Part shown: positions 1-51,895 of the stretch, piece by piece
Layout of the letters: each line of letters begins with the position of its first letter
How positions within the stretch are numbered: position 1 is the first letter of the stretch
Origin: a virus
Length of the DNA stretch: 64,000 bases
IMG/VR virus record: IMGVR_UViG_3300035092_000015
Coordinates: 16,876 to 80,875 of that record
Reading direction: 5' to 3' (one strand)
Position numbers and translations under genes: made by a program
The notes under the pieces: model-generated
Seen by the model: only the letters and a program-made list of their open reading frames with translations
Databases searched by the model: none
Told to the model about the DNA's origin: nothing

Positions 1-10
1 AGGAGAAGCC

Positions 11-781
11 ATGAGCGGCAGCAAGATCGTCACCGACCAGACCAGCTACAACGGCGAACCTCGGGCCCTGCCCGATGTGGCCAGCGAGCACTACACCGCG
101 ATCGACGGGGTGGAGGTCATCGCCCGCGAGTTGGCGGTCTCGCCGCACCCCCGGTGGAAGGACCAACACCCGCAGACCCACCATTTCATCACCAAGCTGC
201 TGCTGGCCGACGGGCGCGAGGTATACGAGTGCAACCACTGCCACCTGCACGATCCGGAGTTGAAGTCGATCAAGGCCCACCTGACCAAGCACCGGCCCAA
301 CCCGCCGCAGCCGTTGACCGACGTGGAGACGATCCGGACGGTGCTGCGGGAGGTCGAGCGGGCCCGCCGGCTGTACGGGGTGGGCCGGTACGGTAAGTAC
401 GCGGTGGACGCGCTGACCCGGCTCGGGGTCCGTCCGGCGACCGGCGATGAGTGGACGGTGGCGAAGGTGACCAGCCTGTACGGTGCCTACAAGGACCGCT
501 ACCCGGTCCGGGCGCCGAAGGTTACCGCCCGCCCCGTGCAGCGGCGCCCCCGGGTCGTCGCGGCTGCCGTCCCGCCGGCCCCCGAACCGACGGTGGTGGT
601 GTCCGGCAGCAACCGCGACCTGATGCAGCTGCTGGTCCAGATCGACGCCATCGTCCACCACGCGATGCGGGCGGTCGCGGCAGCAACCGACCCGGATGAG
701 CAGATCGTGGAGAAGGCCGCCAAGCTGGACCAGCTGGTCGCCGGCCTGGGCGAGGACACGATCAACAAACTGCTGGCTTAG
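11..781 (+). CDS. C2H2 zinc-finger / putative DNA-binding protein
   Basis: AGGAG RBS at 1-5; motif ECNHC..HLTKH; central segment resembles a recombinase-type DNA-binding domain. Confidence 0.6.
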   Translation: MSGSKIVTDQTSYNGEPRALPDVASEHYTAIDGVEVIARELAVSPHPRWKDQHPQTHHFITKLLLADGREVYECNHCHLHDPELKSIKAHLTKHRPNPPQPLTDVETIRTVLREVERARRLYGVGRYGKYAVDALTRLGVRPATGDEWTVAKVTSLYGAYKDRYPVRAPKVTARPVQRRPRVVAAAVPPAPEPTVVVSGSNRDLMQLLVQIDAIVHHAMRAVAAATDPDEQIVEKAAKLDQLVAGLGEDTINKLLA

Positions 782-1179
782 ACCCCATCCTCCGGCACCT
801 CTCTGGCCTCGGCCGGGGGGGTGTCGCTGTAGGTGGGTTCGGTGTTGTCCGCCGCGTTCAGGTCCAGCGCCAGCTGCTCCGCCTCGTTCTCGTCCTTCTC
901 GTCCTTAGGGACGCGGATGACCACACAGGTCGCCAGGGTGGCGATCGAGTTCGCGTCGACCGACAGGAACACCGGGTCGCCGGTGCGCATGTCGGTTGCC
1001 CGGCTGAACACCAGCAGCGTCTTGCCCTGGCGGGCTTCGGCCCACGTCCGGGTCATGTGCTCGTGGACCTGGTCCTCCTGCGCGTCCGGGTCGGTGTCGT
1101 CGGGCAGCTCCAACGAGTCGATCACCTGCGCGCGGTGTCCGCTGGCCAGGGTCATGTCAACCACATACTCAACCTTCAC
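778..1179 (-). CDS. hypothetical protein
   Basis: AGGAG RBS upstream; stop/start overlap with the upstream gene; last gene of the leftward operon. Confidence 0.7.
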   Translation of the reverse strand: MKVEYVVDMTLASGHRAQVIDSLELPDDTDPDAQEDQVHEHMTRTWAEARQGKTLLVFSRATDMRTGDPVFLSVDANSIATLATCVVIRVPKDEKDENEAEQLALDLNAADNTEPTYSDTPPAEAREVPEDGV

Positions 1180-1877
1180 GGTGCCTCTCCTTGTGTCTCC
1201 GACGGTGGGGGGCTATCGACATCCCCCCGTGGGGGTTTCAGTGTCTCCGTGACCAACGGGAGTACCTTCGCGATACCTTCGGACAGCGACCCGTGCGGGT
1301 CCAGTGCTGCCATCCGGGCGACGTTGATGAACAGAGCGCCGGTGGGCAGGCCGTGGCTGCGGACCGGGATGGTGTTGATGATCGGACGCCACGCCGCCTC
1401 AACTGCCTTCCACACTCCGGGCGACCCGGCGACCCGGATCTGCTCGGTCGGGTTGACCAGCCGCTCCAACGGGTTCGGCTGGGTGTCCCAGATCGGGCTG
1501 TACCCCAGATCGAGTGATTCGCACATCCCGGCGAGGCTGTCCAGTTCGGGTTGGGCTATCGGGTAGGTGACGACGGTGGGCAGCGGTCGGACCCGGATCG
1601 GGCCGGTCGCCAGGTGCAGCCACATCTCCGGTTCGGCGGGTTGGCACACGAACACCAGGTCGCAGTAGTCGGCGAGCGTGTCGAGCCGGCTGGTGGTGGG
1701 GATGGCCCACCGCTCGAGCAGATCCACCGTCTCGGGTGGGGTGCCATCGGGGGGGGCCCAGACCATCCCGTGGGGGTGGTAGGCGATCACGGAGTGGTAC
1801 CCGTAGTCGCGCATGGCGAGCGCGAGCGGGATGCCGCGTTCCCAGTCGAGCCCGATGACCCCGATGCGTCGTTTCAC
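1176..1877 (-). CDS. nucleotide-sugar dehydrogenase-like (degenerate Rossmann fold) protein
   Basis: GTG start giving VKRRIGVIGLD..GIPLALAM; DLVFVC segment resembles the UDP-glucose/GDP-mannose dehydrogenase N-terminus. Confidence 0.5.
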   Translation of the reverse strand: MKRRIGVIGLDWERGIPLALAMRDYGYHSVIAYHPHGMVWAPPDGTPPETVDLLERWAIPTTSRLDTLADYCDLVFVCQPAEPEMWLHLATGPIRVRPLPTVVTYPIAQPELDSLAGMCESLDLGYSPIWDTQPNPLERLVNPTEQIRVAGSPGVWKAVEAAWRPIINTIPVRSHGLPTGALFINVARMAALDPHGSLSEGIAKVLPLVTETLKPPRGDVDSPPPSETQGEAP

Positions 1878-1888
1878 CCTGCCGCCTC

Positions 1889-2065
1889 TCAGACCGCCGA
1901 TGAGAACCCGGACACGGCCTCGCGCGGGTGATCGACCTCGCGTTGTAGCCGGCGCAGCGTGGCCTCCAACGCTGGATTGCCGGCCAGTTCGGGCAGCTTC
2001 GCGAGGCGCGCGCCGTCCAGCCGGGCCACCGTGGTCGGGACGTCCGCCGGATCCGGGTTCGTCAC
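1889..2065 (-). CDS. fxsA: FxSxx-COOH family RiPP precursor peptide (58 aa)
   Basis: AAGGAG RBS; GTG start overlaps the upstream TGA; ...LAGNPALEATLRRLQREVDHPREAVSGFSSAV-COOH fits the FxSxx-COOH leader and core pattern. Confidence 0.75.
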   Translation of the reverse strand: MTNPDPADVPTTVARLDGARLAKLPELAGNPALEATLRRLQREVDHPREAVSGFSSAV

Positions 2066-2754
2066 CGGGCGTCTCCTTGTCCCGGGACCCCGGAGGTGTT
2101 CCCGCCGTCGGCGTGGTATCGCCAGGTCCGCTCCGCCAGGTGCACCATCTGCTGGCTGTTCCTGACCGCGTACTGCGACAACCCGATGATGTGGTACCAA
2201 TCCTCGTTGCCGTACTTCTGCGAGTCGCCCTGGAACGGGTCGTTGATGAACCCGACCGCCTGGGCGGCGTCGGTCCGGACCAGGAACGTGATCGTGGTGT
2301 GGTGCGGGGTGGCCGGGTTGAACGGGATCCCGAAATGCCCGAGCGGGTCATTGTCCTCGGTCATCCACGGGAACACGAACATCGCCCCGGTCGCCTCCGC
2401 GACCTCCAGACACCGTTGCAGGTGCTGCGGCAGCCACTCGTCGTCCGAATCGCACCACGCCATCCACTCGGTCTGGACCTGGTCCAGGATCTGCTGGCGG
2501 GTCCAGCCGGCGCCGTGTCCGTCGCGGTCGTTTACGACCAGGATCCGGTCGGGTTGGCGGGTCTGGTTGACGATCGACCGGAGTGTCCGCTCGAGCTTCC
2601 CGTTCACGTACCGGGCGGGGTGGGCGGCGACGCAGGCGGTGACGGTGCCTGGGATCAAGGTGCGGACGGCCCGGTCCAGGTAGTGCTCTAGCGAGTACTC
2701 CGTCTCGGTCTCGGCCTCGGTCGCGTCGGTCGCGTCGTCGATCAACTCACCCAT
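2062..2754 (-). CDS. glycosyltransferase family 2
   Basis: LRSIVNQT..ILVVND, GAGWTR, WCDSDDEWLPQHL (DxD), EDW motif. Confidence 0.85.
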   Translation of the reverse strand: MGELIDDATDATEAETETEYSLEHYLDRAVRTLIPGTVTACVAAHPARYVNGKLERTLRSIVNQTRQPDRILVVNDRDGHGAGWTRQQILDQVQTEWMAWCDSDDEWLPQHLQRCLEVAEATGAMFVFPWMTEDNDPLGHFGIPFNPATPHHTTITFLVRTDAAQAVGFINDPFQGDSQKYGNEDWYHIIGLSQYAVRNSQQMVHLAERTWRYHADGGNTSGVPGQGDAR

Positions 2755-2866
2755 GGTGCCCCCTCCACTTCTCTCCGAGCCACTCCGCCAACGCTACCGC
2801 CGCTAGGCCCACCAACAAGATGATGATGCCGCCCAGACCTTGTGGGTCGTCCCAGCCGCCGTTCAC
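2747..2866 (-). CDS. small membrane peptide
   Basis: GTG start overlapping the upstream stop; one hydrophobic helix GGIIILLVGLAAVALAEW. Confidence 0.5.
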   Translation of the reverse strand: MNGGWDDPQGLGGIIILLVGLAAVALAEWLGEKWRGHHG

Positions 2867-3558
2867 CCGCCACCGCCGTGTTCGTGCAGAATCCACCAGG
2901 TCGCCCACGGCAGATCCATATTCCACCGGACCGGCGCCGGCCCCAGCTGCGACAGCCGCAACAACACCGGCAGCGACAGCTGGTCCTGATGCGACCAGTT
3001 CACACACTCAACCCACCACAGATCCGACAGCGCGATCACCCCCGGGGTGTGCCGGCGTACATTCGCCCCCGTCGCGACCAACCCCCACCCGCCCGGGTGG
3101 AACGAACGGTACGCCTCAATCTGGCGCAGCACCGACGCCGGGTCGTACCGCCAGGTCAACGTCGCCGAGTATTCCCCCTCGGTGTAGATACAGTCCCGCC
3201 ACGGGTGGCGCATACAGGACCAGTCGTCCGACCCGAGCGCCTGCAGGCATTTCTCCGGGTAGTCCGGGAACAGCAGCTGCATCGACCCGTCGATCCACAA
3301 GCTGACATCCACCCCGGGGCAGGCAAGCTCCGGGTGGGTCTTCCACCATTTGTGTGCCAACATCGGCCCGGTCACGGCCGGGTCGCCGTTCAGGGTGGCG
3401 ATCCCGTGCCGGACGATCCGGGGTTCCCACCCGGCGGCGGCTGCCTTCTCCGCCGTCACCTCCGAATCGGTGTACAGGTAGGCGGGGATCCCGAGGAACG
3501 GCAACGGTTTGACCCAATCGTACGGGCCGTAGATCGCGGTGTACAGCGCGAGGTTCAT
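2863..3558 (-). CDS. DUF616/TOD1-MUCI70-like glycosyltransferase
   Basis: LYTAIYGPYD, SLWIDGS, HPWRDCIYTE, QDQLSLP motifs. Confidence 0.8.
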   Translation of the reverse strand: MNLALYTAIYGPYDWVKPLPFLGIPAYLYTDSEVTAEKAAAAGWEPRIVRHGIATLNGDPAVTGPMLAHKWWKTHPELACPGVDVSLWIDGSMQLLFPDYPEKCLQALGSDDWSCMRHPWRDCIYTEGEYSATLTWRYDPASVLRQIEAYRSFHPGGWGLVATGANVRRHTPGVIALSDLWWVECVNWSHQDQLSLPVLLRLSQLGPAPVRWNMDLPWATWWILHEHGGGG

Positions 3559-3773
3559 CGGCCGGCCAGGAAACGTTCAACCGTGGCTGAGTTGCGGTCG
3601 GTGTACGTCTGCGCTGTCACCCGGGCGACCTTGCGCAGCCAGTGCGCCCCCGACGGTCCGACTGGCCGGCTGGTTTCGAGCGCGTTGGCGTATTCGATCA
3701 ACGATTTGACCGACGGCGGTGCGGGTACCAGCTGGACGTCGACCCACCACAGCAGCCGGTTGAGCAGCTTCAT
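3555..3773 (-). CDS. hypothetical protein
   Basis: ATG at 3773 coupled to both flanking genes. Confidence 0.55.
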   Translation of the reverse strand: MKLLNRLLWWVDVQLVPAPPSVKSLIEYANALETSRPVGPSGAHWLRKVARVTAQTYTDRNSATVERFLAGR

Positions 3774-4312
3774 CACTCGTACCCCCGGACCGGTGCGTGG
3801 GCGGCGATCGCCTGCAGGTTGACGTGTAGCCGCCAGTTCCACTCCGCATCCGCCAGTGCGTTGTGCCGGTCCTTCGCAGGCGGCAGGATCTGCTCCGGGT
3901 CGACCCCCAACCGGTGCGCCTCCTGCTGCAGGTCGTTGGTCCACATCGGGATCCCGTTCGGATGGTCGTTCATCGTCCCGTATAGCTGGCACAACACCAC
4001 ATGGTCGTAGGCGCCGTACCAGGCCCACAACTCGACCGGTTCGCCCGGCCCGGTCAGGAACTGGTGGACCTGCTCGGCGATGGTCTCCCGTTCGCGGAAC
4101 ACTGGGTTGTATTCATCCAGACGCCCGTCGGGGGTGTGTGGGAGGCTCGGGAGGACGTTCTCGACCAGCCACGGGTGTCTCCGGATCCGCCGCCACGGCG
4201 CGTCCAAGTCGACCGCGTAGTACATATCGCCTCGGTCGTTGACAATCCCGATCGAGATCAGATCGACCGTCCGGCCGTCCTCCAGGAACTCACAATCGTA
4301 GTAGAACCTCAC
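3773..4312 (-). CDS. DEDDh 3'-5' exoribonuclease (Rv2179c/RNase AS-like)
   Basis: FYYDCEFLEDGRTVDLISIGIV, WAWYGAYDHVVLCQLYG, HNALADA. Confidence 0.9.
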   Translation of the reverse strand: MRFYYDCEFLEDGRTVDLISIGIVNDRGDMYYAVDLDAPWRRIRRHPWLVENVLPSLPHTPDGRLDEYNPVFRERETIAEQVHQFLTGPGEPVELWAWYGAYDHVVLCQLYGTMNDHPNGIPMWTNDLQQEAHRLGVDPEQILPPAKDRHNALADAEWNWRLHVNLQAIAAHAPVRGYE

Positions 4313-5136
4313 CCCAACGCCTCATTCCGGTAAGTCAGGACAGCCTCACGCATCAAGTCCAGATCGTACCGGGGCCGCCAACCGAGCAGATCCCACCCCT
4401 CGCCCGCCGCGTGGATCTCCGACTCGATCTCCCCCTGGCGCATCGGCAGGAAATCGAACCGTGGCATCTTCCACCCGGTTGCACTGGCCGCCACCCACGC
4501 GACCTGCTTCACCGTCATCGGCACCCCGGTCCCGCCGTCGAACACCCGATCCGCGTCGCAGTGCTCGACCGCATCCACCAACATCCGCGCGAGGTCGTCC
4601 ACGTGGATCATGTCGACGGTCTGCTCGCCCGACCCCCAGACCGGCAGCGGTTCCTGGCGCCACGCCTTCACCGCGAACGTCGGCAGGATCTTCTGCGGGT
4701 GTCCCGGGCCGTGTTTCTGCCCCGGCCCGTACGCGTTGAACGCCCGCACATGCGCCACCTGCAGCCCCCGGTTGTGGTGCAGCGCGGTGGCGATCCGCTG
4801 GGCGGCGATCTTGGTCGCGGTGTACAGCGACGGGAACACGTCCGGCATCAAGATCCCGACGTACCGGGCGCCGTTGCGGATACACCACTGCATCACGTTC
4901 AACGCCCCCAGGACGTTCACCTTGACTGCTTCGTTGGGGGTGTCGAACAGTTCTGCTGTCCCGAGCACCCCGGCGAGGTGGATGACCGCGTTGGCCCCCT
5001 CAAGCCCGCCGAGGTGACCGAGGACATCCCCGCCGTGGGTCCGGTCGACTGACCAGGCTTGGTGGCCGGCTTTGCGGGCGGCGACCACGGTGGGTGCGCC
5101 GATGAACCCGGATCCGCCGGTGACTGCGATCTTCAT
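4309..5136 (-). CDS. NAD-dependent nucleotide-sugar epimerase/dehydratase
   Basis: MKIAVTGGSGFIG, VIHLAG, YTATK (YxxxK), FNAYGPG, DMIHVDDLA. Confidence 0.92.
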   Translation of the reverse strand: MKIAVTGGSGFIGAPTVVAARKAGHQAWSVDRTHGGDVLGHLGGLEGANAVIHLAGVLGTAELFDTPNEAVKVNVLGALNVMQWCIRNGARYVGILMPDVFPSLYTATKIAAQRIATALHHNRGLQVAHVRAFNAYGPGQKHGPGHPQKILPTFAVKAWRQEPLPVWGSGEQTVDMIHVDDLARMLVDAVEHCDADRVFDGGTGVPMTVKQVAWVAASATGWKMPRFDFLPMRQGEIESEIHAAGEGWDLLGWRPRYDLDLMREAVLTYRNEALG

Positions 5137-5795
5137 GCCCACTCCTCGGTGAGTTCGGCCAACGCCTGTTCGGGGGTGATAGCGGTGACCCGGTCCAGTA
5201 CCGCAGGGGGGACGGTGGTCCAGTCCTGCCAAATCTCGACCAGCCGCCGGTCCGGTGCCCACTCCTGGGGGTGGGCTGGGAACCCTGACACTACCAGACA
5301 CCCGGTGGGCCAGGTGTCGACCAGGCGCAGCCGCAGATCCGGTCGGTATTCGGCGAGCATCCGGCGGATCTTCCACACGTCGCCGGTCCAGTCCCCCAGG
5401 ATGGGGGTGCCGACGGGGATCCGGCGGGCTTCTTCCTGGTTACGGGGCAGGACGTCGTCGAGCGCGACGATCGAGCGGGGGTGGCAGTACCGGGCGATGT
5501 TCTGGAAGTCCCGTACGACGTATTCGATCAGGTGCATCCCGTCGATGTACGCCAGGTCGATCTGCCACCCATCAGGTCGGGGGTCGGCGAAGAACTCATC
5601 GGAGGTCATGCTGTGGATCTTCTGGTTCGCGGTCTCCACGACCAGCGGCTGCGGGTCGATCCCGATCGCGACCTCGGCTGCGAACGCCAGGTTCAGGCTG
5701 TACCCGTGTTGAACCCCGACCTCCAGGTAGGTTTTCGGCCGGACCAGCCGGTGCAGCCCGGTCAGGAACCCACGGGTGTCGCTTAGATCGACCAT
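5133..5795 (-). CDS. class I SAM-dependent methyltransferase (Methyltransf_24-like)
   Basis: YLEVGVQHGYS, DLAYIDGMH, IVALDD, WTGDVWK. Confidence 0.88.
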   Translation of the reverse strand: MVDLSDTRGFLTGLHRLVRPKTYLEVGVQHGYSLNLAFAAEVAIGIDPQPLVVETANQKIHSMTSDEFFADPRPDGWQIDLAYIDGMHLIEYVVRDFQNIARYCHPRSIVALDDVLPRNQEEARRIPVGTPILGDWTGDVWKIRRMLAEYRPDLRLRLVDTWPTGCLVVSGFPAHPQEWAPDRRLVEIWQDWTTVPPAVLDRVTAITPEQALAELTEEWA

Positions 5796-6466
5796 GGCCG
5801 GAACCCCCACTTCTCGACAAACAACGCCATGTCGACCCCGGTCCTGGCCTGCAACTCCGGGCGGGTCGAGGTCGACTGGTCCGGATACAGATGCCGGACC
5901 TCATCCCGGGGCATGATCAACGTCCCGCCCAACCGGCGGGCCTGCATGTCCAGGTCGTTGTCCCCGCACCACCAGGCGAACCGTTCGTCGGCCCGCAGGT
6001 TCCCCTCGCCGCGCAGCAGGAACGCCCACCCGGGCATCCGTTCATGCAACGCCGTCAACCCCGGTTCGCGGTGGAATACCGGCTCGTGGACCGGGCCGAA
6101 CCCGGCAGCATAGCACCCCCCCAGGCGCATCGGGGTCGACAACCGGTCGAACCAGTCCGGCGGAAGGATCGCATCGTCGTTGCACACCGCCACGTCGTAC
6201 ATCGTCCGGTTAGTGCTCGACATGTTGGCGACCGCGACCCGCCCGAGCCCGACGTTCCACAGCCGGGACAGGTTCGGCGGCTGCTCCGGGTGGTGCTCCA
6301 CCACAACCAGCGGGTGCCGGTGATCGTCGAAATAGCCGCCCAAGTCGGAGTTGTCCACTACCACCACCCACGCGTTCTGGGCCTGGGCGGCGGCGATCGC
6401 TTCGCGCAGTTCTTTGTCCCGTTCGCCTCGGGTGGTGATCACCGCATACCGGGGGATCCGGTCCAT
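5783..6466 (-). CDS. glycosyltransferase family 2
   Basis: VVVVDNS, NLSRLWNVGL, VCNDD, DERFAWWCGDND. Confidence 0.85.
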   Translation of the reverse strand: MDRIPRYAVITTRGERDKELREAIAAAQAQNAWVVVVDNSDLGGYFDDHRHPLVVVEHHPEQPPNLSRLWNVGLGRVAVANMSSTNRTMYDVAVCNDDAILPPDWFDRLSTPMRLGGCYAAGFGPVHEPVFHREPGLTALHERMPGWAFLLRGEGNLRADERFAWWCGDNDLDMQARRLGGTLIMPRDEVRHLYPDQSTSTRPELQARTGVDMALFVEKWGFRPWSI

Positions 6467-6966
6467 CAACGCTCCTTGTCGGGGTAGACGAGTTGGCCGT
6501 CGTACATCAGCCACATCCTGGACAGCTGGACCTCCATGTCCTGGATAGCCGACAGGAGCCACCTCCGGAACTCCTCAGCGGTAACTCTGTCCCGGTTGAA
6601 GATCGGCAGCCGGATAATCAGCCCAAGCCGGTCGGTCAGCGACTTGTGCGGCGGGATGGTCTGCGACAGGTAGTGCCGTTCTTCCGGCTCGGGGTCGGTG
6701 TAGCCGTTCATAGCCGGGAACCGCATGCGGTGCAAGAACCGGTTCGGGTCCCGCACCTCGACCCGCAGCACCATCCAATCGACCATATAACCCGGAGGCG
6801 TAAACAGTGGGCTGGACGGGTCGACCTGGTCCGGAGACAGCAACTCGAACCGCCACCCCGGTTTGTAACTGTGCCGGCGCAGCTGGGCCCGGTACCAACC
6901 ATCGGTACCCGGCGGGGACAGAGCATCCAGCACCTGCTCGCGGCGTTCCTGGACCGGGTCTTTCAC
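6466..6966 (-). CDS. hypothetical protein
   Basis: GTG start overlapping the upstream stop; SYKPGWRFEL segment. Confidence 0.6.
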   Translation of the reverse strand: MKDPVQERREQVLDALSPPGTDGWYRAQLRRHSYKPGWRFELLSPDQVDPSSPLFTPPGYMVDWMVLRVEVRDPNRFLHRMRFPAMNGYTDPEPEERHYLSQTIPPHKSLTDRLGLIIRLPIFNRDRVTAEEFRRWLLSAIQDMEVQLSRMWLMYDGQLVYPDKER

Positions 6967-7946
6967 GACTGGTACGCCTTCAGCCAACGCCAAGCGTTCC
7001 CCTCCACCGTCCGGGTCGCGGCCCACTCCCGACCCGCCTGCGCCATCTCGTCGCGCAGCTGCGGCGATTTGGTCAACGTCCACAGGTGTTTATCCCACTG
7101 TTTCGGGTCAGACACCAGGAACCCGGTCTTGCCGTGTTGGACCGACTCGCGGTACGCGACCACATCCGACGCGACCACCGGGAACCCCAGCGCGTTCGCC
7201 TCCAGACAGCGCAGGTCCGACTTGGAGGTGTTGAACACCGTCGGCGCCAGCGGCGCCACCGCGAAATGCCAATCCAGCAGGTGGTAGAACCGGTCGTGTC
7301 CGACCCAATCGGTCCTGCGGTGCGGGTGGACGCTGGGGAACGACGGCGGGGTCGATCCGACCGTGTGGAACTCCACCGGGACCCCCTGCTGCCGGGCCTG
7401 GTTGAACCAACGCCCGATCGGGTTCGCGGCGCGGGCCCAGTCGCCGGTGTGGGTGGCCGACCCTTGCCAGCCGACGGTGATCCGGTCGACGTGGTACCCG
7501 TGTTGCCAGTCCAGTAACGCCGCCGGGATGCAGTTCGGTACGACGTGGATGTTCCGGTTGTACTGGGCTAGCCGTTCTGCCAGCGGGGCGGTGGAGACGG
7601 TGACCACGTCGGCGACCTGCAGGTTGGCGATGATGTTCGCCTGGATCTGCGGGTTGTTGAAGAACTCGACGCTCGGGTTGTGCTGGTCCAGGTTCAACAG
7701 GTCGTCGTCGACCTCGTACACCAGTTTCGGCCGGTTCCCTTTCGACCGGGCCATCCGCTGGAAGATCCCGGTCGGGCCTTCCAGGCAGGTCCGTTGGGCG
7801 ATCACCACGTCGTAATCCCAGAACTCCTCCTTCAAGGTGTTCCCGAACCGGGTGTGTTCGCCCTGCTCGCGCAAAGCCGCCAGCGGCAGTAGGATCCGGT
7901 ACCAGGCACAGCCGGCGAAATCGGCCTGCCAGCCGAAGATCTTCAC
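6963..7946 (-). CDS. glycosyltransferase family 4 (GT-B)
   Basis: GCAWYRI, YEVDDDL, VTVSTAPLA, VPNCI, KSDLRCLEANALGFPVVASDV, HGKTGFLV. Confidence 0.9.
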   Translation of the reverse strand: MKIFGWQADFAGCAWYRILLPLAALREQGEHTRFGNTLKEEFWDYDVVIAQRTCLEGPTGIFQRMARSKGNRPKLVYEVDDDLLNLDQHNPSVEFFNNPQIQANIIANLQVADVVTVSTAPLAERLAQYNRNIHVVPNCIPAALLDWQHGYHVDRITVGWQGSATHTGDWARAANPIGRWFNQARQQGVPVEFHTVGSTPPSFPSVHPHRRTDWVGHDRFYHLLDWHFAVAPLAPTVFNTSKSDLRCLEANALGFPVVASDVVAYRESVQHGKTGFLVSDPKQWDKHLWTLTKSPQLRDEMAQAGREWAATRTVEGNAWRWLKAYQS

Positions 7947-8788
7947 AAGACCACCCCGGGGTGTAGTTGACGCATGATCTCGATCGGCACCGGGCGGTAC
8001 CGGTCGCGGAAGCTGCGCGGGCTGCGCCCCGCCTGCAGATGGGCCTGGTATAGCGCGTTCTGCTCGGCGAAGGTCAGATCTTCGAACTCCACCCGCAGAC
8101 TGTGCCGGGGCGGTAGCTTCGCCCGGTCCAGCTTCTCCCAATCGATGAACCCGACCGCCTCGGGGTCGCTGTACGGCCCAGCCTGCGGGTCGTCGATAGT
8201 CCGGTCGGTCCAGGCTTCGAACGGCTGCCACCCCCGGGCGGTCGCGGCGGCAGCGGCGCCCCGGTCTGGCCCGTCGACGCACCACAGCTGCTGGTACAGC
8301 CGGTCGATCCGGTTGTGGGTGCGGGCGGTGACCCGGTCGAACGTTGCATGCCGCCACAGGTGCAGGTTCGACCGGGGCAGGTCACTGATACTGGACAGGT
8401 AGACCAGCCCGTACCCGCCGCGTCCCATCGCCTGCAACCGGCGGGCCACCCCGATCGGGTCGACCAGTGCCAGGACCGGGGCGACCCGGGCGATCCGCTG
8501 TGCGATCGCCGGGGTGACGCTGGCCTGCCGCCCGCTGTGTAGCCCTTCGACGGTTTTACCCCAGACGGCTGCCTCGAGCGCGATCTGGTACAGGCTCATT
8601 CCCTGCTCAAGCAGCGCCTCGATGTGCAGCCGGGTGGGGAGGGCGTTGATCCGTGACTGCCAGGTCCCGTAGGCGAGGGCCCGGGTGCGGCGGGCTTTCA
8701 ACTGCCGCCGGTATTCGGCGCAGTCGGTGCAGCCGACGTGGTAGCGGGCTCGGTGGTTGGGGCAGATTCGTGGCTGTGGCGGGACCAT
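7943..8788 (-). CDS. HTH DNA-binding protein with N-terminal Cys cluster
   Basis: CTDC; HIEALLEQGMSLYQIA HTH; RRLQAMGRGGY, typical of actinophage HTH proteins. Confidence 0.65.
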   Translation of the reverse strand: MVPPQPRICPNHRARYHVGCTDCAEYRRQLKARRTRALAYGTWQSRINALPTRLHIEALLEQGMSLYQIALEAAVWGKTVEGLHSGRQASVTPAIAQRIARVAPVLALVDPIGVARRLQAMGRGGYGLVYLSSISDLPRSNLHLWRHATFDRVTARTHNRIDRLYQQLWCVDGPDRGAAAAATARGWQPFEAWTDRTIDDPQAGPYSDPEAVGFIDWEKLDRAKLPPRHSLRVEFEDLTFAEQNALYQAHLQAGRSPRSFRDRYRPVPIEIMRQLHPGVVL

Positions 8789-9237
8789 GGATCTCTCCGG
8801 GGTGGCGGGGCGTCGAACAGGGTGGCGGGTGGTTCGGCCAACTCGGTGGCTCCCCACGGGGTGAGCCAGACGGGGCAGTTGTGGATGCGGGCCCGTTCGA
8901 CACAATCGGCGGTGCCGGACGACTGGCCGGGCGGACCCGGGAAGGCCAGGCAGCAGTACGCGTAGGGCCAGTTCTCGGCCCACATGTGGGCGTTACGGAT
9001 CGGACCGGCGCGGCGACCCATCCGCCAATCAGCCGGATACGGAACCTGGTAGACGTCGGGGTGGTCCTGCTCTTCGACCCAAACCCGGACGATCTCATCC
9101 AGCCCCCGCTCCGCAGCACCGTGCACGACCTTGAACAGCTCACCTCGGGCGATGGCCACGTCGCGCAGCAGCCCGAGCGCCTGCCGGGGCAGGGTCGGTG
9201 GGGCGTAGAACCGCCAGCCGGTGGCGACGATCAACAT
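8698..9237 (-). CDS. SLOG family (YspA/DUF2493-like) protein
   Basis: IVATGWR, VVHGAA.RGLD, YPADW..GRRAGPIRNAHM, LAFPG..SGTADC. Confidence 0.8.
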   Translation of the reverse strand: MLIVATGWRFYAPPTLPRQALGLLRDVAIARGELFKVVHGAAERGLDEIVRVWVEEQDHPDVYQVPYPADWRMGRRAGPIRNAHMWAENWPYAYCCLAFPGPPGQSSGTADCVERARIHNCPVWLTPWGATELAEPPATLFDAPPPRRDPWSRHSHESAPTTEPATTSAAPTAPNTGGS

Positions 9238-9682: not shown

Positions 9683-10184
9683 CCTCGTCCTCCTTGCCCG
9701 GGTTCAACACCCGCTCCAAACCGGACTGGATCGCCTCCAGTTCGTGACGCAACTCGGCCTCGCTGATCCTATCGGTCTGGAACACCCGGCGGGTGTAGTC
9801 CGCCCAATGCCGGACCCCCACCCGCAGCCGGGCCACTTCCATGTCCGACAGCCGGTCAGCCGCCAGCCGCAGCGTCGTCGCGGACAGCTCAACATCGCCG
9901 TCCTCGTCCAGCGTCCCCTGCGCGGTCCGCGAGACGTACAACGCCCGCATCACCTTGCGCAGCGCCTCGTCCTGCTCCGGGTTCGCGACCTCCAGCCCGG
10001 TGATCCGCAGTTCGACCGACCGGTCCTTGTCCTCGTCCGGGGCGGGTTCGTTGCGGACTGCGTGCTTCAACTCCCCGACCACCATGATCCGGGCGCCCTG
10101 GTTGCGGTACAGCCGGTCGGCGTAAAGCTCGACCGCCTCCTGGGCGGAGGTGGACGGTTTGCCGCTGATCTTAACGGTGGTCAC
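9675..10184 (-). CDS. hypothetical phage protein
   Basis: AGGAGG RBS; downstream of a predicted promoter. Confidence 0.75.
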   Translation of the reverse strand: MTTVKISGKPSTSAQEAVELYADRLYRNQGARIMVVGELKHAVRNEPAPDEDKDRSVELRITGLEVANPEQDEALRKVMRALYVSRTAQGTLDEDGDVELSATTLRLAADRLSDMEVARLRVGVRHWADYTRRVFQTDRISEAELRHELEAIQSGLERVLNPGKEDEGE

Positions 10185-33095: not shown

Positions 33096-33166
33096 GGCTG
33101 CTTAGCTCAACGGCAGAGCAGGCGTCTCTAACACGCCGGTTGCGGGTCCGACTCCCGCCGCAGCCT
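33096..33166 (+). tRNA. tRNA-like gene with CUA anticodon (amber suppressor type), atypical T-loop
   Basis: acceptor GGCTGCT/CGCAGCC, D arm GCTC/GAGC, anticodon arm GGCGT-CTCTAAC-ACGCC, T arm GCGGG-TCCGACT-CCCGC; no encoded CCA. Confidence 0.75.
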
Positions 33167-33263
33167 CGCACCGCGCGTGGCCCGGACAGCCGGGTAACGC
33201 GGCGGGTCAGGGCGCCGGGCTGGCTGGGCGCCTTGTCGACTTGGCCCGCCGGGGCCACGAGCG

Positions 33264-48313: not shown

Positions 48314-49330
48314 GTGCCGGCGCCCCGCGACCAGCCGCGTTGGCCCCGGGGATCGCCCGACGACCCGGAGGGTAGAGGCCAGGGCGGACGGTGGCGTGAA
48401 CGCAACGCCGCCACCATGTGGTCCGACCAGCTGTACACCCGGATCGGCGGGATCCCGCCCTGGGCCGATCGCTCGTACATCGCCCGGTTGGCGTTGCTAC
48501 GTCCGAAACGGGAAGGCCGGATATCTGGCGGGTCGGTGGCGCAGACCCAGCAGCTGGACTACGACGGCGGCGGGGTCGCCATCCGTAAGACCTTCTCCGA
48601 CGACGACGACGGGAAACGGGCAGCATCGGCCGAATACCTGTCGTCGTTGGTGTCCGACGTCGTGGGGGCGATGGCCCCGGCAGTGGTGAAAGACCCGACC
48701 GACCCGGAACACGCGGTGATCATGGGCCGGGTCAACGGCGACCTCGGGACGATGCACACCGGGTCGAAGGACGCCACCGAATGGGGCGAGGCCCGGTACT
48801 GGTACGCCGAGTCCGACGCCGGCCGTAGGATCGGGCTGTTGGATGTCCTGATCGCGAACCGCGACCGGCATTCGATGAACTGGATCATGTCGAACGAACT
48901 GGACGCCCCCCACGCGTGGCGGCCGGACCAGGGCACGATACGTCGGCCGATCCCGATCGACCATTCGGAGGCATTCCAGGACACGTTGATCGCCGGGGCC
49001 GGGTTGAAGATCGTCAGCCCTGAAGGGCAGTACACCGCCCCGATGGAGCTTCTGGCGTACCGTGGTTTCACCGGTGCGTGGCTGCAACGCGCGGGGGAAC
49101 TGGCCGACGAGTCGGGGGTGGCGATCGACGCCCACTCGGTCGGCGGGACCCTGGCATACCAGGAGAAGAACCCACTACACCCGGACGATGTTCCGGTCCT
49201 ACGGGCCCGGTTGGAGGCTCTGCGACCGAGGTTCGCCGACGAGGATATGCTCGAGCAGTACACGTTGATGATGCGCCGGTTCGAACACCTCGCGCGGCGG
49301 GCTGCCGGGACCGAGCGGATGTTCCCATGA
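48314..49330 (+). CDS. PRWP-tagged HipA/PI3-PI4-kinase-like kinase 1
   Basis: QPRWPRGSP..GQGGRW; AIRK, AEYLSS, DVLIANRDRHSMNW, PIDH. Confidence 0.85.
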   Translation: MPAPRDQPRWPRGSPDDPEGRGQGGRWRERNAATMWSDQLYTRIGGIPPWADRSYIARLALLRPKREGRISGGSVAQTQQLDYDGGGVAIRKTFSDDDDGKRAASAEYLSSLVSDVVGAMAPAVVKDPTDPEHAVIMGRVNGDLGTMHTGSKDATEWGEARYWYAESDAGRRIGLLDVLIANRDRHSMNWIMSNELDAPHAWRPDQGTIRRPIPIDHSEAFQDTLIAGAGLKIVSPEGQYTAPMELLAYRGFTGAWLQRAGELADESGVAIDAHSVGGTLAYQEKNPLHPDDVPVLRARLEALRPRFADEDMLEQYTLMMRRFEHLARRAAGTERMFP

Positions 49331-50244
49331 GCCGCGACTGGGACCCCGACAAGCACCCCCGCGACCCGGACGACGGACGATTCACCGAGACGTGGGCCGC
49401 CCAGGCAGTGGCCAGACTCTGGCGGCCCAGGACTCACAACGAACTGGCCGACCTGGTCAAACGGGACGATTACACCGAATCTGACCTCGCAGGCGGCAGT
49501 TCCTCCCACACTCGGCTGTACACCTACAGCACCGGAGAACGGGTGGTGCACAAAACCGCCTTCGGTCAAGAAGACGAAGATTTCGATGAGTTCAGCCGGG
49601 ATGATTATGAAGGCGGCTACGGGCCGCCGCCCGGCGAAGAGAACAGCGTCACCTGGGACCAACTGGACGCGATCCAACAGGCCGAAAACGAAACCATCGC
49701 CAGCCTGATCGGACGCGCCATCGGCGCTCCCGTCCCCGCTGCCGTGTACGACCACAGCCGCCGCGATTCGATCTACATGGACTACGTGCCCGGCCGGACT
49801 GCTTGGGCCGAGTTCCAGCACCGCAACCCGCGCGGCAGGCACACCGAGTTCTACCAGATGCAGCAGCAGCTGGCTGCCACCGATCAGGGCCGGCTGTTGG
49901 GGCTGCTGGACCTGTTGATCGGCAACGGTGACCGCAACGGCAACAACTGGATCATCGACCCCGACGGGCGGATCTGGGGGATCGACCACGCGCACAGCTT
50001 CGACCAGGGCGACGGCGGCGGTGTGTCGGATTTCGCCGACCCGATCATGATCCGGCGTCTCGACCCGGACGATAAGATCGTCGACTTTCATCCAGACGAT
50101 GCCCGCGAAGCCGCCCGGCGGATCGCCGAACTGCGACCAGCGATCGACCGGCCCGGAGTGTGGCCGAGTGTCAACGATATGCTGGACACTCTGGAGCAGC
50201 TGGCCCGGCACGGCGACCCAGACGCCCCCCGGAGGATCTTGTGA
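49327..50244 (+). CDS. HPRD-tagged HipA/PI3-PI4-kinase-like kinase 2
   Basis: DWDPDKHPRDPDDGRFTETWA; VVHK, NETIASL, DLLIGNGDRNGNNW, GIDH. Confidence 0.85.
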   Translation: MSRDWDPDKHPRDPDDGRFTETWAAQAVARLWRPRTHNELADLVKRDDYTESDLAGGSSSHTRLYTYSTGERVVHKTAFGQEDEDFDEFSRDDYEGGYGPPPGEENSVTWDQLDAIQQAENETIASLIGRAIGAPVPAAVYDHSRRDSIYMDYVPGRTAWAEFQHRNPRGRHTEFYQMQQQLAATDQGRLLGLLDLLIGNGDRNGNNWIIDPDGRIWGIDHAHSFDQGDGGGVSDFADPIMIRRLDPDDKIVDFHPDDAREAARRIAELRPAIDRPGVWPSVNDMLDTLEQLARHGDPDAPRRIL

Positions 50245-51023
50245 CCCGCGACTGGGACGAGGCCGAACACCCCCGCGACGAGGCCGGGCGGTTCACCGAA
50301 GCCTGGGCCGCATCACTGCACGGGCTGATGTTCCCGGGCAACGGGCTGATGACCCACGACGACCTGGACAAATACCGCGACCGGACCGACTACACCGCCG
50401 AACGGCTCGGCAACTCGTCCAACCCGGTGCACCTGCGGACCTACAGCGACGGGCGGCAGCTGGTCCACAAAGAACACGAACTCGACCATCAGGCCGACAA
50501 CGAGATCCGGGCCTCCTGGATGGGTTGGGCCGTCGGCGCACCCGTCCCGGCCGTGGTGTCCGACCCGGAAGACCCCGAATACGGCACCCTGTCGGAGTAC
50601 ATCGACGGGCTCACCCCGTCCTGGCACTCCAGCCCGGAGATGGTCCAGTGGGCCCAGGGACGGACTGGCGCCGACCGGTTGGGGCTGTTCGACCTGCTGG
50701 CCGGCGCCGCCGATCGGCACAACTTCAACTGGTTGGTCGACGACGACGGGCACGTCTATGGGATCGACCACGCCGACGTTGAGTTCGGGAGGGAGAACGT
50801 AGCGATCGGGCCGTTCGTCCAGTTGTACTACTACAGAGACAGAGGTTCGGCCAATCCGGCTGTCCCCGGTCGGTACATCCAACCGCCACTGACCCAGGCC
50901 CAGCTGCAGGTCGTGGAGCAGCGGCTGGAGCACCTGCGGTACCAGCGTAAGATGTTCAGCCCCGGCGAGTGGCGCGGGATCCGTAAGATGCTCGAGCAGG
51001 TCAAACAGAAAGCTATGCCATGA
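50241..51023 (+). CDS. HPRD-tagged HipA/PI3-PI4-kinase-like kinase 3
   Basis: DWDEAEHPRDEAGRFTEAWA; LVHK, NEIRAS, DLLAGAADRHNFNW, GIDH. Confidence 0.85.
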   Translation: MTRDWDEAEHPRDEAGRFTEAWAASLHGLMFPGNGLMTHDDLDKYRDRTDYTAERLGNSSNPVHLRTYSDGRQLVHKEHELDHQADNEIRASWMGWAVGAPVPAVVSDPEDPEYGTLSEYIDGLTPSWHSSPEMVQWAQGRTGADRLGLFDLLAGAADRHNFNWLVDDDGHVYGIDHADVEFGRENVAIGPFVQLYYYRDRGSANPAVPGRYIQPPLTQAQLQVVEQRLEHLRYQRKMFSPGEWRGIRKMLEQVKQKAMP

Positions 51024-51895
51024 CCGACCAGCCGCGTTGGCCCGGAGGAACCCCAGTCGCCCCCGACGGGAAAGGCCCTGGTGGCGGCCGGTTCCGCGAC
51101 AGCGTCCCCGAAGGGTGGGCGTTGCAGACCGCGCTAGTGCTCGGGCAGAAACAACCCTGGAAGCGGATCTCACGCGGCGAGCTGAGCCTGGCCGTACGGC
51201 GCGGCACCGACGCCGCTGCCGCCGACAAACTGCACGGCGGGGAGATGGCCCAAACCCAGATCTTCACCCACCCCGACGGGCAGGCGGTCGTCAAGAAGAC
51301 CTACGGCCGGTTCGACCACGACTCAGTCGACTCGGAATACCTGACCGGGTTGGTGTCGGAGGCGATCGGCGCACCCACCCCGGCGGTGGTCCGCGACCCC
51401 GACGGCGACCCAGCTGTCGTGTGGATGCAGTACGTGCCGGGTTCGTTGGCTGCGTCGCAGCTGCCCCGACGGTTGACCCCCGACCCGTACGCGTCTGATG
51501 ACGCGGCGCTGCTCGGGCTGCTCGACATCCTGACGTTGAACTGGGACCGCAACGCCGGCAACTGGAAGCACGCCCCCGGGAACAGGATCGTCGGGATCGA
51601 CCACGGCGAGGCGTTCAAGATCTCAGCCCCGGACAACCCGGACGGATCGCCCGGCATCCCCCGGCAGATGCGCGACTCCGGGTTCACGAAGCTGTACGCC
51701 GACCGGGGTGTCCTGGGTTGGTCCTGGAGGGACAACGACCTGCACCCCGACGACCTGGAGGCGCTGCGGCCGAGGCTGCAGGCGCTGCGGGCACAGTTCG
51801 TCCAGGGCCACCGGGGCAGCTACCACGACGCGATGATGCGCCGACTGGATGAGCTGCAACGCCGCGCCCGGGGGACCCGCCGGAGGATCCAATGA
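51020..51895 (+). CDS. PRWP-tagged HipA/PI3-PI4-kinase-like kinase 4
   Basis: QPRWPGGTPVAPDGKGPGGGRF; VVKK, SEYLTG, DILTLNWDRNAGNW, GIDH. Confidence 0.85.
   Translation: MTDQPRWPGGTPVAPDGKGPGGGRFRDSVPEGWALQTALVLGQKQPWKRISRGELSLAVRRGTDAAAADKLHGGEMAQTQIFTHPDGQAVVKKTYGRFDHDSVDSEYLTGLVSEAIGAPTPAVVRDPDGDPAVVWMQYVPGSLAASQLPRRLTPDPYASDDAALLGLLDILTLNWDRNAGNWKHAPGNRIVGIDHGEAFKISAPDNPDGSPGIPRQMRDSGFTKLYADRGVLGWSWRDNDLHPDDLEALRPRLQALRAQFVQGHRGSYHDAMMRRLDELQRRARGTRRRIQ

What the first reader, a model, noticed from the sequence alone, without database searches (positions are those of the whole stretch)
1889..2065. Orphan FxSxx-COOH RiPP precursor inside a phage sugar-modification operon
Seen: a 58-aa peptide with a good RBS, coupled to a GT2 gene, ending ..ALEATLRRL...EAVSGFSSAV. 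Established: FxSxx-COOH (FxsA) peptides of actinomycetes are cyclophane precursors normally encoded beside the radical SAM maturase FxsB. No radical SAM gene is in this window. Inference: the phage supplies a substrate or decoy for a host Fxs system (possibly signalling or defence), or the neighbouring glycosyltransferases modify the Ser-rich core.
Basis: partly seen in the sequence, partly recalled or inferred. Interest (0 to 1): 0.75.

Follow-up and report, generated by a model that had tools for sequence, protein, structure and literature searches.

The report
Phage-borne orphan FxsA peptide precursor
A soil phage of high-GC bacteria carries, without any of the modifying enzymes, a well-conserved copy of a small peptide gene that filamentous actinomycetes keep inside a predicted suicide-type immune gene cluster, so the phage probably feeds a look-alike peptide into that host system.

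Summary
Observation confirmed. Window 1889-2065 (-) encodes a 58-aa peptide with an AAGGAG ribosome site, a GTGA start/stop overlap with an upstream GT2 gene, and the end GFSSAV-stop. It scores 35.5 bits on NCBIfam TIGR04268 (cut-off 28). The complete 80.9-kb phage has no radical SAM, FxsB, HExxH hydroxylase or FxsT. Relatives with a near-invariant PREAVSGFSSA(V/I) end sit in 4 other viral and 5 further metagenome contigs, in four settings: after GT2, after an inserted ORF, after a 50-aa ORF, and inside a 28-tRNA array. Synonymous sites are near saturation while the core does not change, so it is a translated, selected gene. Two pattern scans of 185,579 bacterial species genomes found no copy of this subtype. 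Best reading (about 0.5): an orphan precursor or mimic that works through the host Fxs machinery, which papers predict to belong to a TIR/STAND immune locus. Modification by the phage glycosyltransferases is weakened, not excluded. Host unknown; nothing tested at the bench. The scan has noted orphan phage FxsA genes before on other DNA (24 notes, at least 20 genomes); this subtype only in this genome.

The parts
1889..2065 (-). 58-aa FxsA-like (FxSxx-COOH family) peptide gene, GTG start, TGA stop at 1891-1889; Phe54-Ser55-Ser56-Ala57-Val58 at the C-terminus
   Evidence: purifying selection
2073..2078 (-). Shine-Dalgarno AAGGAG, 7 bases before the GTG start; lies inside the 3' end of the GT2 gene
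   Evidence: read; identical in the related phage locus L001
2062..2754 (-). GT2-family glycosyltransferase, 230 aa; its TGA overlaps the peptide's GTG (GTGA)
   Evidence: PF00535 49.3 bits; phrog_14775 E 4.6e-30; 42% identical homologues in Streptomyces phages Zuko and KimJongPhill, which have no peptide
1176..1877 (-). 233-aa gene 11 bases downstream of the peptide; short UDP-glucose/GDP-mannose dehydrogenase-like Rossmann protein (a lead only)
   Evidence: no Pfam, NCBIfam or PHROG hit; language-model look-alikes at 0.93 carry PF03721/PF00984; kept in L001 and L013, no match in the 104.7-kb phage G003 at E 1e-5
2863..3558 (-). TOD1/MUCI70-like glycosyltransferase (context: sugar operon)
   Evidence: PF04765 25.5 bits; 57% identical homologue in G003
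3773..8357 (-). rest of the leftward operon (context). Rv2179c-like exonuclease 3773-4312, NAD epimerase within 4309-5376, methyltransferase 5133-5810, GT2-like 5783-6562, 205-aa unknown 6466-7083, GT1 within 6963-8357. These are maximal ORFs; starts were not curated.
   Evidence: syntenic with G003 82.5-87.7 kb at 30-57% identity

Best explanation
The gene makes a 58-residue peptide that is a true homologue of FxsA, the precursor of the FxSxx-COOH cyclophane (triceptide) peptides of actinomycetes. It keeps both the leader helix motif (ALEATLRRL) and the C-terminal Phe-x-Ser motif. An FxsB-type radical SAM enzyme cross-links Phe C4 to Ser C-beta at that motif. The phage, probably lytic, has none of the Fxs enzymes. 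The peptide can therefore only meet such enzymes in its host, a so far unidentified actinomycete. Proposed mechanism (inferred): during infection the peptide is made together with the leftward operon. It is bound by the host FxsB through its leader. It then acts in one of two ways. It may be matured into a look-alike of the host's own Fxs peptide. Or it may occupy the enzyme, or the TPR sensor protein FxsT, as a decoy. Either way it would blunt or misdirect the FxsC/FxsT (TIR-ParA-STAND) cell-suicide and alarm system that the literature predicts around FxsAB. Shown here: a real, selected, family-level FxsA homologue; orphan in three complete or near-complete phage genomes; a conserved subtype seen only on phage-like or metagenome contigs. 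Inferred: every step that involves the host.
For: Family: TIGR04268 35.5 bits against a cut-off of 28. A genuine FxsA next to FxsB in Nonomuraea gerenzanensis scores 44.9. All 4 word-search homologues carry Pfam PF27839, named FxSxx-COOH.

Orphan: 0 matches to TIGR04269, PF04055, TIGR04267 and NF040586 in G000 (100% complete), G001 (93%) and G003 (100%). The PF04055 control rang in 14 of 14 genomes.

Selection: window against L003 has 25 synonymous differences on 29.3 synonymous sites and 18 non-synonymous on 75.7 sites over the last 35 codons. The 11 core codons PREAVSGFSSA have no amino-acid change in 6 of 7 loci; L018 has Q for R. A strain variant has 2 synonymous changes and one leader change, A19V.

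Independence from neighbours: the same subtype follows GT2 (G000, L001). It follows a 92-aa inserted ORF, again with a GTGA overlap (L013). It follows a 50-aa ORF (L012, L015-L017). It also sits between tRNA-Arg and tRNA-Cys in a 28-tRNA array (L003).

A second FxsA subtype (AGFQS type) is also orphan in a 95%-complete viral contig that has no radical SAM and no GT2.

Host side: FxsB is very common in filamentous actinomycetes including Streptomyces, with 7,540 of 8,000 scored candidates at E <= 1e-30. The phage terminase is closest to Streptomyces phages at 42-47%.

Literature: FxsAB lies in loci with FxsC (active TIR) and FxsT (ParA, inactive TIR, STAND/TPR). These are predicted to couple cell death to a modified peptide that is an antiviral molecule or an alarm signal (PMC7159879, section 24 read; bioRxiv 10.64898/2026.10.19.760177, passages read). 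MscB, an FxsB-family enzyme, links Phe C4 to Ser C-beta (PMC11002830, passages read).

No tyrosine or serine integrase was found in G000, G001 or G003. Expression would then fall in lytic infection.
Against: The host is unknown, so it is not shown that it has an Fxs locus. Two pattern scans of one genome for each of 185,579 species found no bacterial peptide with this core. The phage form therefore copies no known host FxsA closely, and recognition by a host FxsB is an assumption. The 10 nearest representative clusters that I looked up are all metagenome singletons or pairs without context. The immune role of Fxs loci is itself only predicted. The peptide is embedded in, and translationally coupled to, a sugar operon. 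That operon co-occurs with the peptide in both complete lineages, which a pure host-Fxs model does not explain. No RNA or protein data exist for the gene.
Confidence: 0.5

Rival explanations
1. The peptide is a substrate of the phage's own glycosyltransferases. GT2 or another enzyme of the operon would O-glycosylate Ser52, Ser55 or Ser56. The result would be a glycopeptide in the manner of glycocins, or the peptide would serve as a primer or regulator of the virion- or surface-glycosylation pathway.
For: GTGA coupling to GT2 and a place inside the operon in G000 and L001. There are three Ser in the last seven residues. The same syntenic operon (GT1, GT2-like, methyltransferase, epimerase, TOD1-like GT, GT2; 30-57% identity) is present in G003, the other complete phage with this subtype. 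The peptide there is 57-61% identical, a similar divergence, which is compatible with common descent as one block.
Against: In G003 the peptide is about 55 kb from the operon, inside a tRNA array. In L013 a 275-bp insertion with its own ORF separates GT2 from the peptide. Streptomyces phage Zuko has the GT-methyltransferase-GT2 block but 0 TIGR04268 matches. GT2-bearing viral contigs G005 (88% complete) and G006 (77%) also have none. An orphan FxsA of another subtype sits in a 95%-complete viral contig without any GT2. The GT2 is 230 aa and its best partial matches are polysaccharide enzymes (TuaG, WcaA). By recall, peptide-glycosylating SunS-type enzymes are longer. The conserved leader and the F-x-S end are already explained by FxsA homology.
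Confidence: 0.12
2. The peptide acts unmodified and independently of any Fxs machinery. It would be, for example, a small helical protein that binds another host or phage target, with the FxsA-like sequence merely its evolutionary origin.
For: No maturase is at hand in the phage. This core subtype was not found in the bacterial species genomes scanned, as if it had left the host family's constraints. TIGR04268 scores of subtype members run from 45.3 down to 16 bits, which shows drift from the bacterial family.
Against: The residues that stay fixed are exactly those that define the modified motif: Gly-Phe-x-Ser at the very C-terminus, and the LRRL leader helix. The leader N-terminus varies freely: 9 of the 12 differences between P0001 and P0003 lie in the first 22 residues. 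This is the pattern of a RiPP precursor.
Confidence: 0.15
3. The phage does carry a maturase, but of an unrecognised family, so the peptide is not an orphan.
For: Many genes of the 80.9-kb genome have no family assignment. The genes flanking the peptide on its downstream side (233 aa and 133 aa) have no Pfam, NCBIfam or PHROG match.
Against: Apart from the sugar operon and an exonuclease, the ORFs shared by G000 and G003 at E <= 1e-5 lie next to the peptide in neither genome. The 233-aa neighbour has no match in G003. Its look-alikes are sugar-nucleotide dehydrogenases. No CxxxCxxC motif occurs in a plausible frame.
Confidence: 0.08
4. The ORF is a decaying hitch-hiker or is not translated.
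For: No RNA run holds the stretch. The gene is short.
Against: It has a strong ribosome site and a start/stop overlap that is re-created with a different upstream gene in L013. It stays intact in every locus found. Synonymous sites are near saturation while the core is unchanged.
Confidence: 0.04

Closest known systems
FxsA/FxsB (FxSxx-COOH; MscA/MscB) triceptide system of Actinomycetota (NCBIfam TIGR04268 and TIGR04269; Pfam PF27839)
   Same: Length of about 55-60 aa. The leader has the D-L/V ... ALxxxLRRL helix. The C-terminus is G-F-x-S-x-x-COOH. The score is over the curated cut-off. It aligns with the Nonomuraea FxsA, which lies in one locus with FxsT, FxsB and the aKG-HExxH hydroxylase.
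   Different: It is encoded by a phage without FxsB, HExxH hydroxylase or FxsT. The core is the conserved variant PREAVSGFSSA(V/I), not the commoner A-G-F-Q/N-S. That variant was not found in 185,579 species genomes by two pattern scans. Modification is untested.
Fxs-associated TIR-ParA/STAND loci (FxsC, FxsT; VMAP-ternary peptide-processing systems), predicted immune or apoptosis systems (PMC7159879; bioRxiv 10.64898/2026.10.19.760177)
   Same: The phage peptide belongs to the peptide family that these papers place at the output or signal end of such loci.
   Different: None of the locus's proteins is in the phage. In the passages I read, the papers do not describe phage-borne copies. The immune role is a prediction, not an experiment.
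Other orphan FxsA-like genes on phage contigs
   Same: A stand-alone precursor gene without a maturase. G008 is 95% complete, has no radical SAM, and holds an AGFQS-type peptide about 3 kb from a tyrosine integrase. A tRNA-array setting was noted before (e1-5785253) and is seen here in L003.
   Different: This subtype has its own near-invariant core. It sits in probably lytic phages. In this lineage it is embedded in a sugar operon. The sequence look-up found this subtype in no other genome of the scan.
Glycocin precursor plus GT2 glycosyltransferase pairs such as SunA/SunS (recalled, not tested by any search)
   Same: A small peptide gene next to a GT2-family enzyme.
   Different: There are no Cys residues and no helix-loop-helix with disulfides. 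The GT2 is a 230-aa catalytic domain whose homologues occur in phages without the peptide.

Membership tests
FxsA / FxSxx-COOH precursor family (TIGR04268, PF27839) | Score at or above the curated cut-off of the family model (28 bits) | tested here: met
   35.5 bits, E 8.3e-9. Relatives: L001 45.3, L003 30.6. L012 25.0 and L018 16.0 are below the cut-off. The local Pfam copy lacks PF27839 and gave no hit. PF27839 is precomputed for 4 of 4 homologues.
FxsA / FxSxx-COOH precursor family (TIGR04268, PF27839) | Small peptide ending in Phe-x-Ser-x-x-COOH | tested here: met
   Phe54-Ser55-Ser56-Ala57-Val58-stop. These columns are invariant in the 5-sequence alignment.
FxsAB RiPP system (precursor plus maturase) | An FxsB radical SAM/SPASM maturase (TIGR04269) encoded beside the precursor | tested here: not met
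   0 matches to TIGR04269 and to PF04055 in the complete genome. In the Nonomuraea comparator FxsB scores 467 bits, 2.6 kb from FxsA.
FxsAB RiPP system (precursor plus maturase) | Accessory genes of the locus: aKG-HExxH hydroxylase (TIGR04267), FxsT (NF040586), FxsC (TIGR04276) | tested here: not met
   0 of 4 viral records match each model. The TIGR04276 search rang in no control genome, so it is weak evidence.
FxsAB RiPP system (precursor plus maturase) | Phe C4 to Ser C-beta cyclophane cross-link in the product | not testable with these tools
   The chemistry is known for MscB (PMC11002830, passages read). It needs mass spectrometry or NMR of the peptide made with an FxsB.
Glycocin-type peptide plus GT2 pair | The transferase and the peptide always occur together | tested here: not met
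   GT2 homologues without the peptide: Zuko, G005 and G006. Peptide far from GT2: G003.

The most novel reading that the evidence does not exclude
A phage-specific clade of FxsA mimics is a counter-defence tool. The host's own FxsB would staple the phage peptide. Alternatively the peptide would jam FxsB. Its conserved SGFSSA(V/I)-COOH end would then occupy the TPR sensor of FxsT. The TIR-ParA-STAND suicide and alarm system of multicellular actinomycetes would then be silenced, or its alarm peptide counterfeited. This would be a virus hijacking a host RiPP pathway by supplying only the substrate. It would also give the first experimental handle on what Fxs loci do.
Probability: 0.25. Interest if true: 0.85.

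Novelty: new variant of a known kind. Interest (0 to 1): 0.6.

Why it matters
The function of the very common Fxs loci of actinomycetes is still only predicted. FxsB alone gave 7,540 of 8,000 scored candidates at E <= 1e-30 in one search. Phage-borne orphan copies of the precursor are indirect evidence that the peptide matters in phage-host conflict. That evidence is independent of the comparative-genomic argument in the two papers. They also offer a simple experiment: peptide with or without the host FxsB, and with or without the Fxs locus, under infection. For natural-product work, this would be a RiPP precursor that travels without its enzyme and relies on the enzyme of another genome. My five searches of the open literature found no paper that describes phage-encoded FxsA. 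Subscription papers and supplements were not searchable.

Tried and rejected
The contexts of P0003 and P0005 were obtained with the search for related loci instead. The contexts of P0006-P0017 remain unknown; they are metagenome singletons or pairs.

2. Bacterial hosts. Two genome-contig scans with subtype patterns gave 0 relatives (166 and 25 stretches matched). These are narrow pattern scans of one genome per species, not proof of absence. I therefore could not ask which genera carry Fxs loci by taxonomy.

3. tblastn of the peptide against 50,697 phage records gave only 15 chance-level rows (E 3 to 9). No cultured phage in that collection has this subtype.

4. Complex prediction of a Streptomyces-led FxsB alignment (A5) with the peptide alignment (A3) gave no verdict. 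It is neither support nor evidence against.

5. A scan of viral contigs with the Nonomuraea FxsB found none (10 stretches matched, 0 relatives). A single-protein query finds close relatives only. I therefore did not reproduce the earlier notes' claim of phage FxsB cassettes.

6. Sequencing runs: 24 listed, none on record as RNA. This says nothing on expression. Contigs of 4 runs were laid and used only for the strain variant in the 7,928-base contig of run X1.

7. The promoter and terminator scan of 600-4400 found no promoter-like site and one terminator-like site on the + strand, at chance level. Rfam gave 0 matches in 1-9000.

8. A second TIGR04268 match in G000 (window about 9985-10074 +, 13.7 bits) lies opposite a coding gene. 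I took it as noise.

9. CxxxCxxC motifs occur only in low-GC3 or antisense frames. They were rejected as radical SAM candidates.

10. The supplements of PMC7159879 (source data with gene neighbourhoods) could not be seen. They may list phage or prophage copies.

11. I looked for ORFs shared by G000 and G003 that might be a hidden partner. Only the sugar operon, an exonuclease and scattered ORFs of unassigned function are shared.

Full report
What is there. On the minus strand of window 1889-2065 lies an ORF of 58 codons plus TGA. Its GTG start overlaps the TGA stop of the upstream GT2 glycosyltransferase gene (2062-2754) as GTGA. AAGGAG lies 7 bases before the start. Third-position G+C is 0.86, like the surrounding genes and well above the window mean of 0.67. 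The product ends Gly-Phe-Ser-Ser-Ala-Val. It scores 35.5 bits (E 8.3e-9) on NCBIfam TIGR04268, 'FxSxx-COOH cyclophane-containing RiPP peptide', whose cut-off is 28. The match covers model positions 5-44 of 44, so both leader and core align. The local Pfam and PHROG libraries give nothing. All four homologues found by word search carry the precomputed Pfam domain PF27839, which names FxSxx-COOH.

The genome. The window is bases 16876-80875 of an 80,875-base IMG/VR virus record with direct terminal repeats, rated 100% complete. Its terminase is 42-47% identical to those of Streptomyces phages such as Zuko and Dryad. A 124-base piece of its exonuclease gene resembles Gordonia phages. No tyrosine or serine integrase is found, so it is probably lytic. 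The stretch, or close relatives of it, occurs in rhizosphere and soil metagenome runs. Six-frame HMM searches of the whole genome find no FxsB (TIGR04269) and no radical SAM domain at all (PF04055; the control rang in 14 of 14 genomes). They also find no aKG-HExxH hydroxylase (TIGR04267), no FxsT (NF040586) and no FxsC C-terminal domain (TIGR04276; this last control rang nowhere and counts for little). For comparison I read a canonical locus in Nonomuraea gerenzanensis. It holds FxsT (1008 bits), a 54-aa FxsA (44.9 bits), two further genes, FxsB (467 bits) and the HExxH hydroxylase (176 bits) within 8 kb. The phage peptide is therefore an orphan.

Relatives. A word search found 4 homologues of 58-59 aa at 57-97% identity. 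A profile search of 1.84 billion representatives found 54 at E <= 0.001. The nearest ones share a near-invariant end, PREAVSGFSSA(V/I). More distant ones show the commoner bacterial form, A-G-F-Q/N-S. The ten nearest clusters that I looked up are all metagenome singletons or pairs from ENA, Logan or JGI, and none is from an NCBI genome. Scans of IMG/VR found the subtype on 4 other viral contigs. A scan of JGI metagenomes found 6 loci, one of them the same 104.7-kb contig. Two pattern scans of one genome for each of 185,579 bacterial and archaeal species found none. These scans are narrow, so they do not prove absence.

Contexts. (a) In G000, G001/L001 (93% complete) and L013 the order is TOD1-like GT, GT2, peptide, a 233-aa gene, a 133-aa gene. 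L013 has a 275-bp insertion exactly between GT2 and the peptide. The insertion carries a roughly 92-aa ORF whose TGA again overlaps a new GTG start of the peptide. (b) In G003/L003 (104.7 kb, 100% complete, 60% G+C) and the fragment G002, the gene stands alone with its own ribosome site. It lies between tRNA-Arg(ccg) and tRNA-Cys(gca) in an array of 28 tRNA genes. (c) In L012 and L015-L017 (phages related to G003) a 65-aa form follows a 50-aa ORF with a 4-base overlap. (d) In L018, a 7.5-kb contig of 70% G+C, a 94-aa form faces a second, convergent FxsA-like ORF. No radical SAM is found in any viral record, and no plausible CxxxCxxC ORF in any locus.

Is it a working gene? Between the window and L003, synonymous differences are near saturation: 25 on 29.3 sites over the last 35 codons. 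Non-synonymous differences number 18 on 75.7 sites. The 11 core codons show no amino-acid change in 6 of 7 loci. Between G000 and G001 the peptide is 79% identical while GT2 is 92% identical. Nine of the twelve peptide differences lie in the first 22 residues. A strain variant on a 7,928-base contig has two synonymous changes and A19V. A fast-changing leader N-terminus with a fixed leader helix and a fixed C-terminal motif is what PMC7159879 (section 24) describes for these precursors.

What is known of the family. MscB, of the FxsB family (IPR026335), joins Phe C4 to the C-beta of the Ser two residues on (PMC11002830, passages read; the primary paper, Nguyen et al. 2020, I saw only in its reference list). 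Kaur et al. 2020 (PMC7159879, section 24 read in full) place the FxSxx peptide, its radical SAM/SPASM enzyme and an HExxH protein next to VMAP-ternary systems, together with a TIR plus AP-ATPase-TPR protein. They propose that the processed peptide is a toxin or signal. NCBIfam now names the HExxH protein a beta-hydroxylase. A 2026 preprint (10.64898/2026.10.19.760177, passages read) maps FxsC to an active TIR and FxsT to ParA plus an inactive TIR plus STAND. It finds these loci enriched in multicellular bacteria. [quoted passage not shown] Neither paper mentions phage-borne FxsA in the parts I read. My five searches found no such paper. FxsB is abundant in filamentous actinomycetes, Streptomyces included.

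Best explanation. The phage supplies only the substrate-like peptide. The features kept under selection are those that an FxsB would need (leader helix, G-F-x-S at the C-terminus). The phage has no such enzyme. So the peptide most likely meets the host's Fxs machinery as a substrate, a competitor or a ligand mimic, to the phage's advantage. I put this at about 0.5. The steps that involve the host are all inferred.

The sugar-operon question. A BLAST comparison of all ORFs shows that G003 has the same operon in the same order: GT1, GT2-like, methyltransferase, epimerase, TOD1-like GT, GT2, at 30-57% identity. Thus both complete lineages that have this peptide subtype also have the operon. The peptide (57-61% identical) and the operon proteins have diverged to a similar degree. 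Against a functional tie, five points stand. In G003 the peptide is about 55 kb from the operon. In L013 another ORF sits between GT2 and the peptide. Zuko has the GT-methyltransferase-GT2 block and no FxsA match. Two further GT2-bearing viral contigs have none either. A 95%-complete viral contig with an orphan FxsA of the AGFQS type has no GT2. I read the position in this window as an insertion at a plastic operon junction, and give the glycosylation rival 0.12.

Limits. The host is unidentified. Bacterial genomes could not be searched by taxonomy from a virus record. Supplements were closed. The one structure-based test gave no verdict and is listed only under Tried and rejected.

Verdict. 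This is a real, selected, orphan FxsA-family precursor gene in a probably lytic actinophage. It belongs to a subtype seen so far only on phage-like and metagenome contigs. It is a new variant of a known kind. The scan has noted orphan phage FxsA genes before on other DNA (24 notes, at least 20 genomes), but found this subtype only in this genome. Interest 0.6.

Noticed in passing
window 33096-33167 (+): The only tRNA gene in the window has the anticodon CTA. It would read the amber stop codon, and ARAGORN labels it tRNA-Pyl. It may be a suppressor tRNA in a phage.
   Followed up: no
L018 2905-3189 (+) and 3206-3457 (-): A 7.5-kb, 70% G+C metagenome contig holds two convergent FxsA-like ORFs. 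One is a 94-aa form ending SGFSSAI (TIGR04268 16.0 bits). The other is an 83-aa form ending SAFQSFVE (18.3 bits). Both are below the cut-off. A Phd/YefM-like antitoxin ORF and an exonuclease lie nearby.
   Followed up: partly
L013 547-824: A 275-bp insertion relative to the window lies exactly between GT2 and the peptide. It carries a roughly 92-aa Cys-containing ORF of unknown function. Its stop overlaps a new GTG start of the peptide.
   Followed up: partly
window 2062-8357 and G003 82.5-87.7 kb (L025 2516-7702): Two otherwise distant phages (81 kb at 67% G+C; 105 kb at 60% G+C with 28 tRNAs) share a syntenic six-gene sugar operon at 30-57% protein identity.
   Followed up: partly
G003 54604-67890 (+): One open frame of about 4,400 codons in the 104.7-kb phage matches several separate G000 ORFs (G000 65189-68770, that is window 48314-51895) at 26-34% identity. 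Earlier notes call those window genes tagged HipA-like kinases.
   Followed up: no
window 2380-2614: Contigs of two soil or rhizosphere runs (X3, X4) join 2380 to 2614 with 20 other letters between. This would be a GT2 variant lacking about 230 bases. It has low depth and was laid at 85% likeness (table 5c).
   Followed up: no
L037 5001-5132 (G008): A 46.5-kb, 95%-complete viral contig carries an AGFQS-type orphan FxsA about 3 kb from a tyrosine integrase. It has no radical SAM and no GT2.
   Followed up: partly
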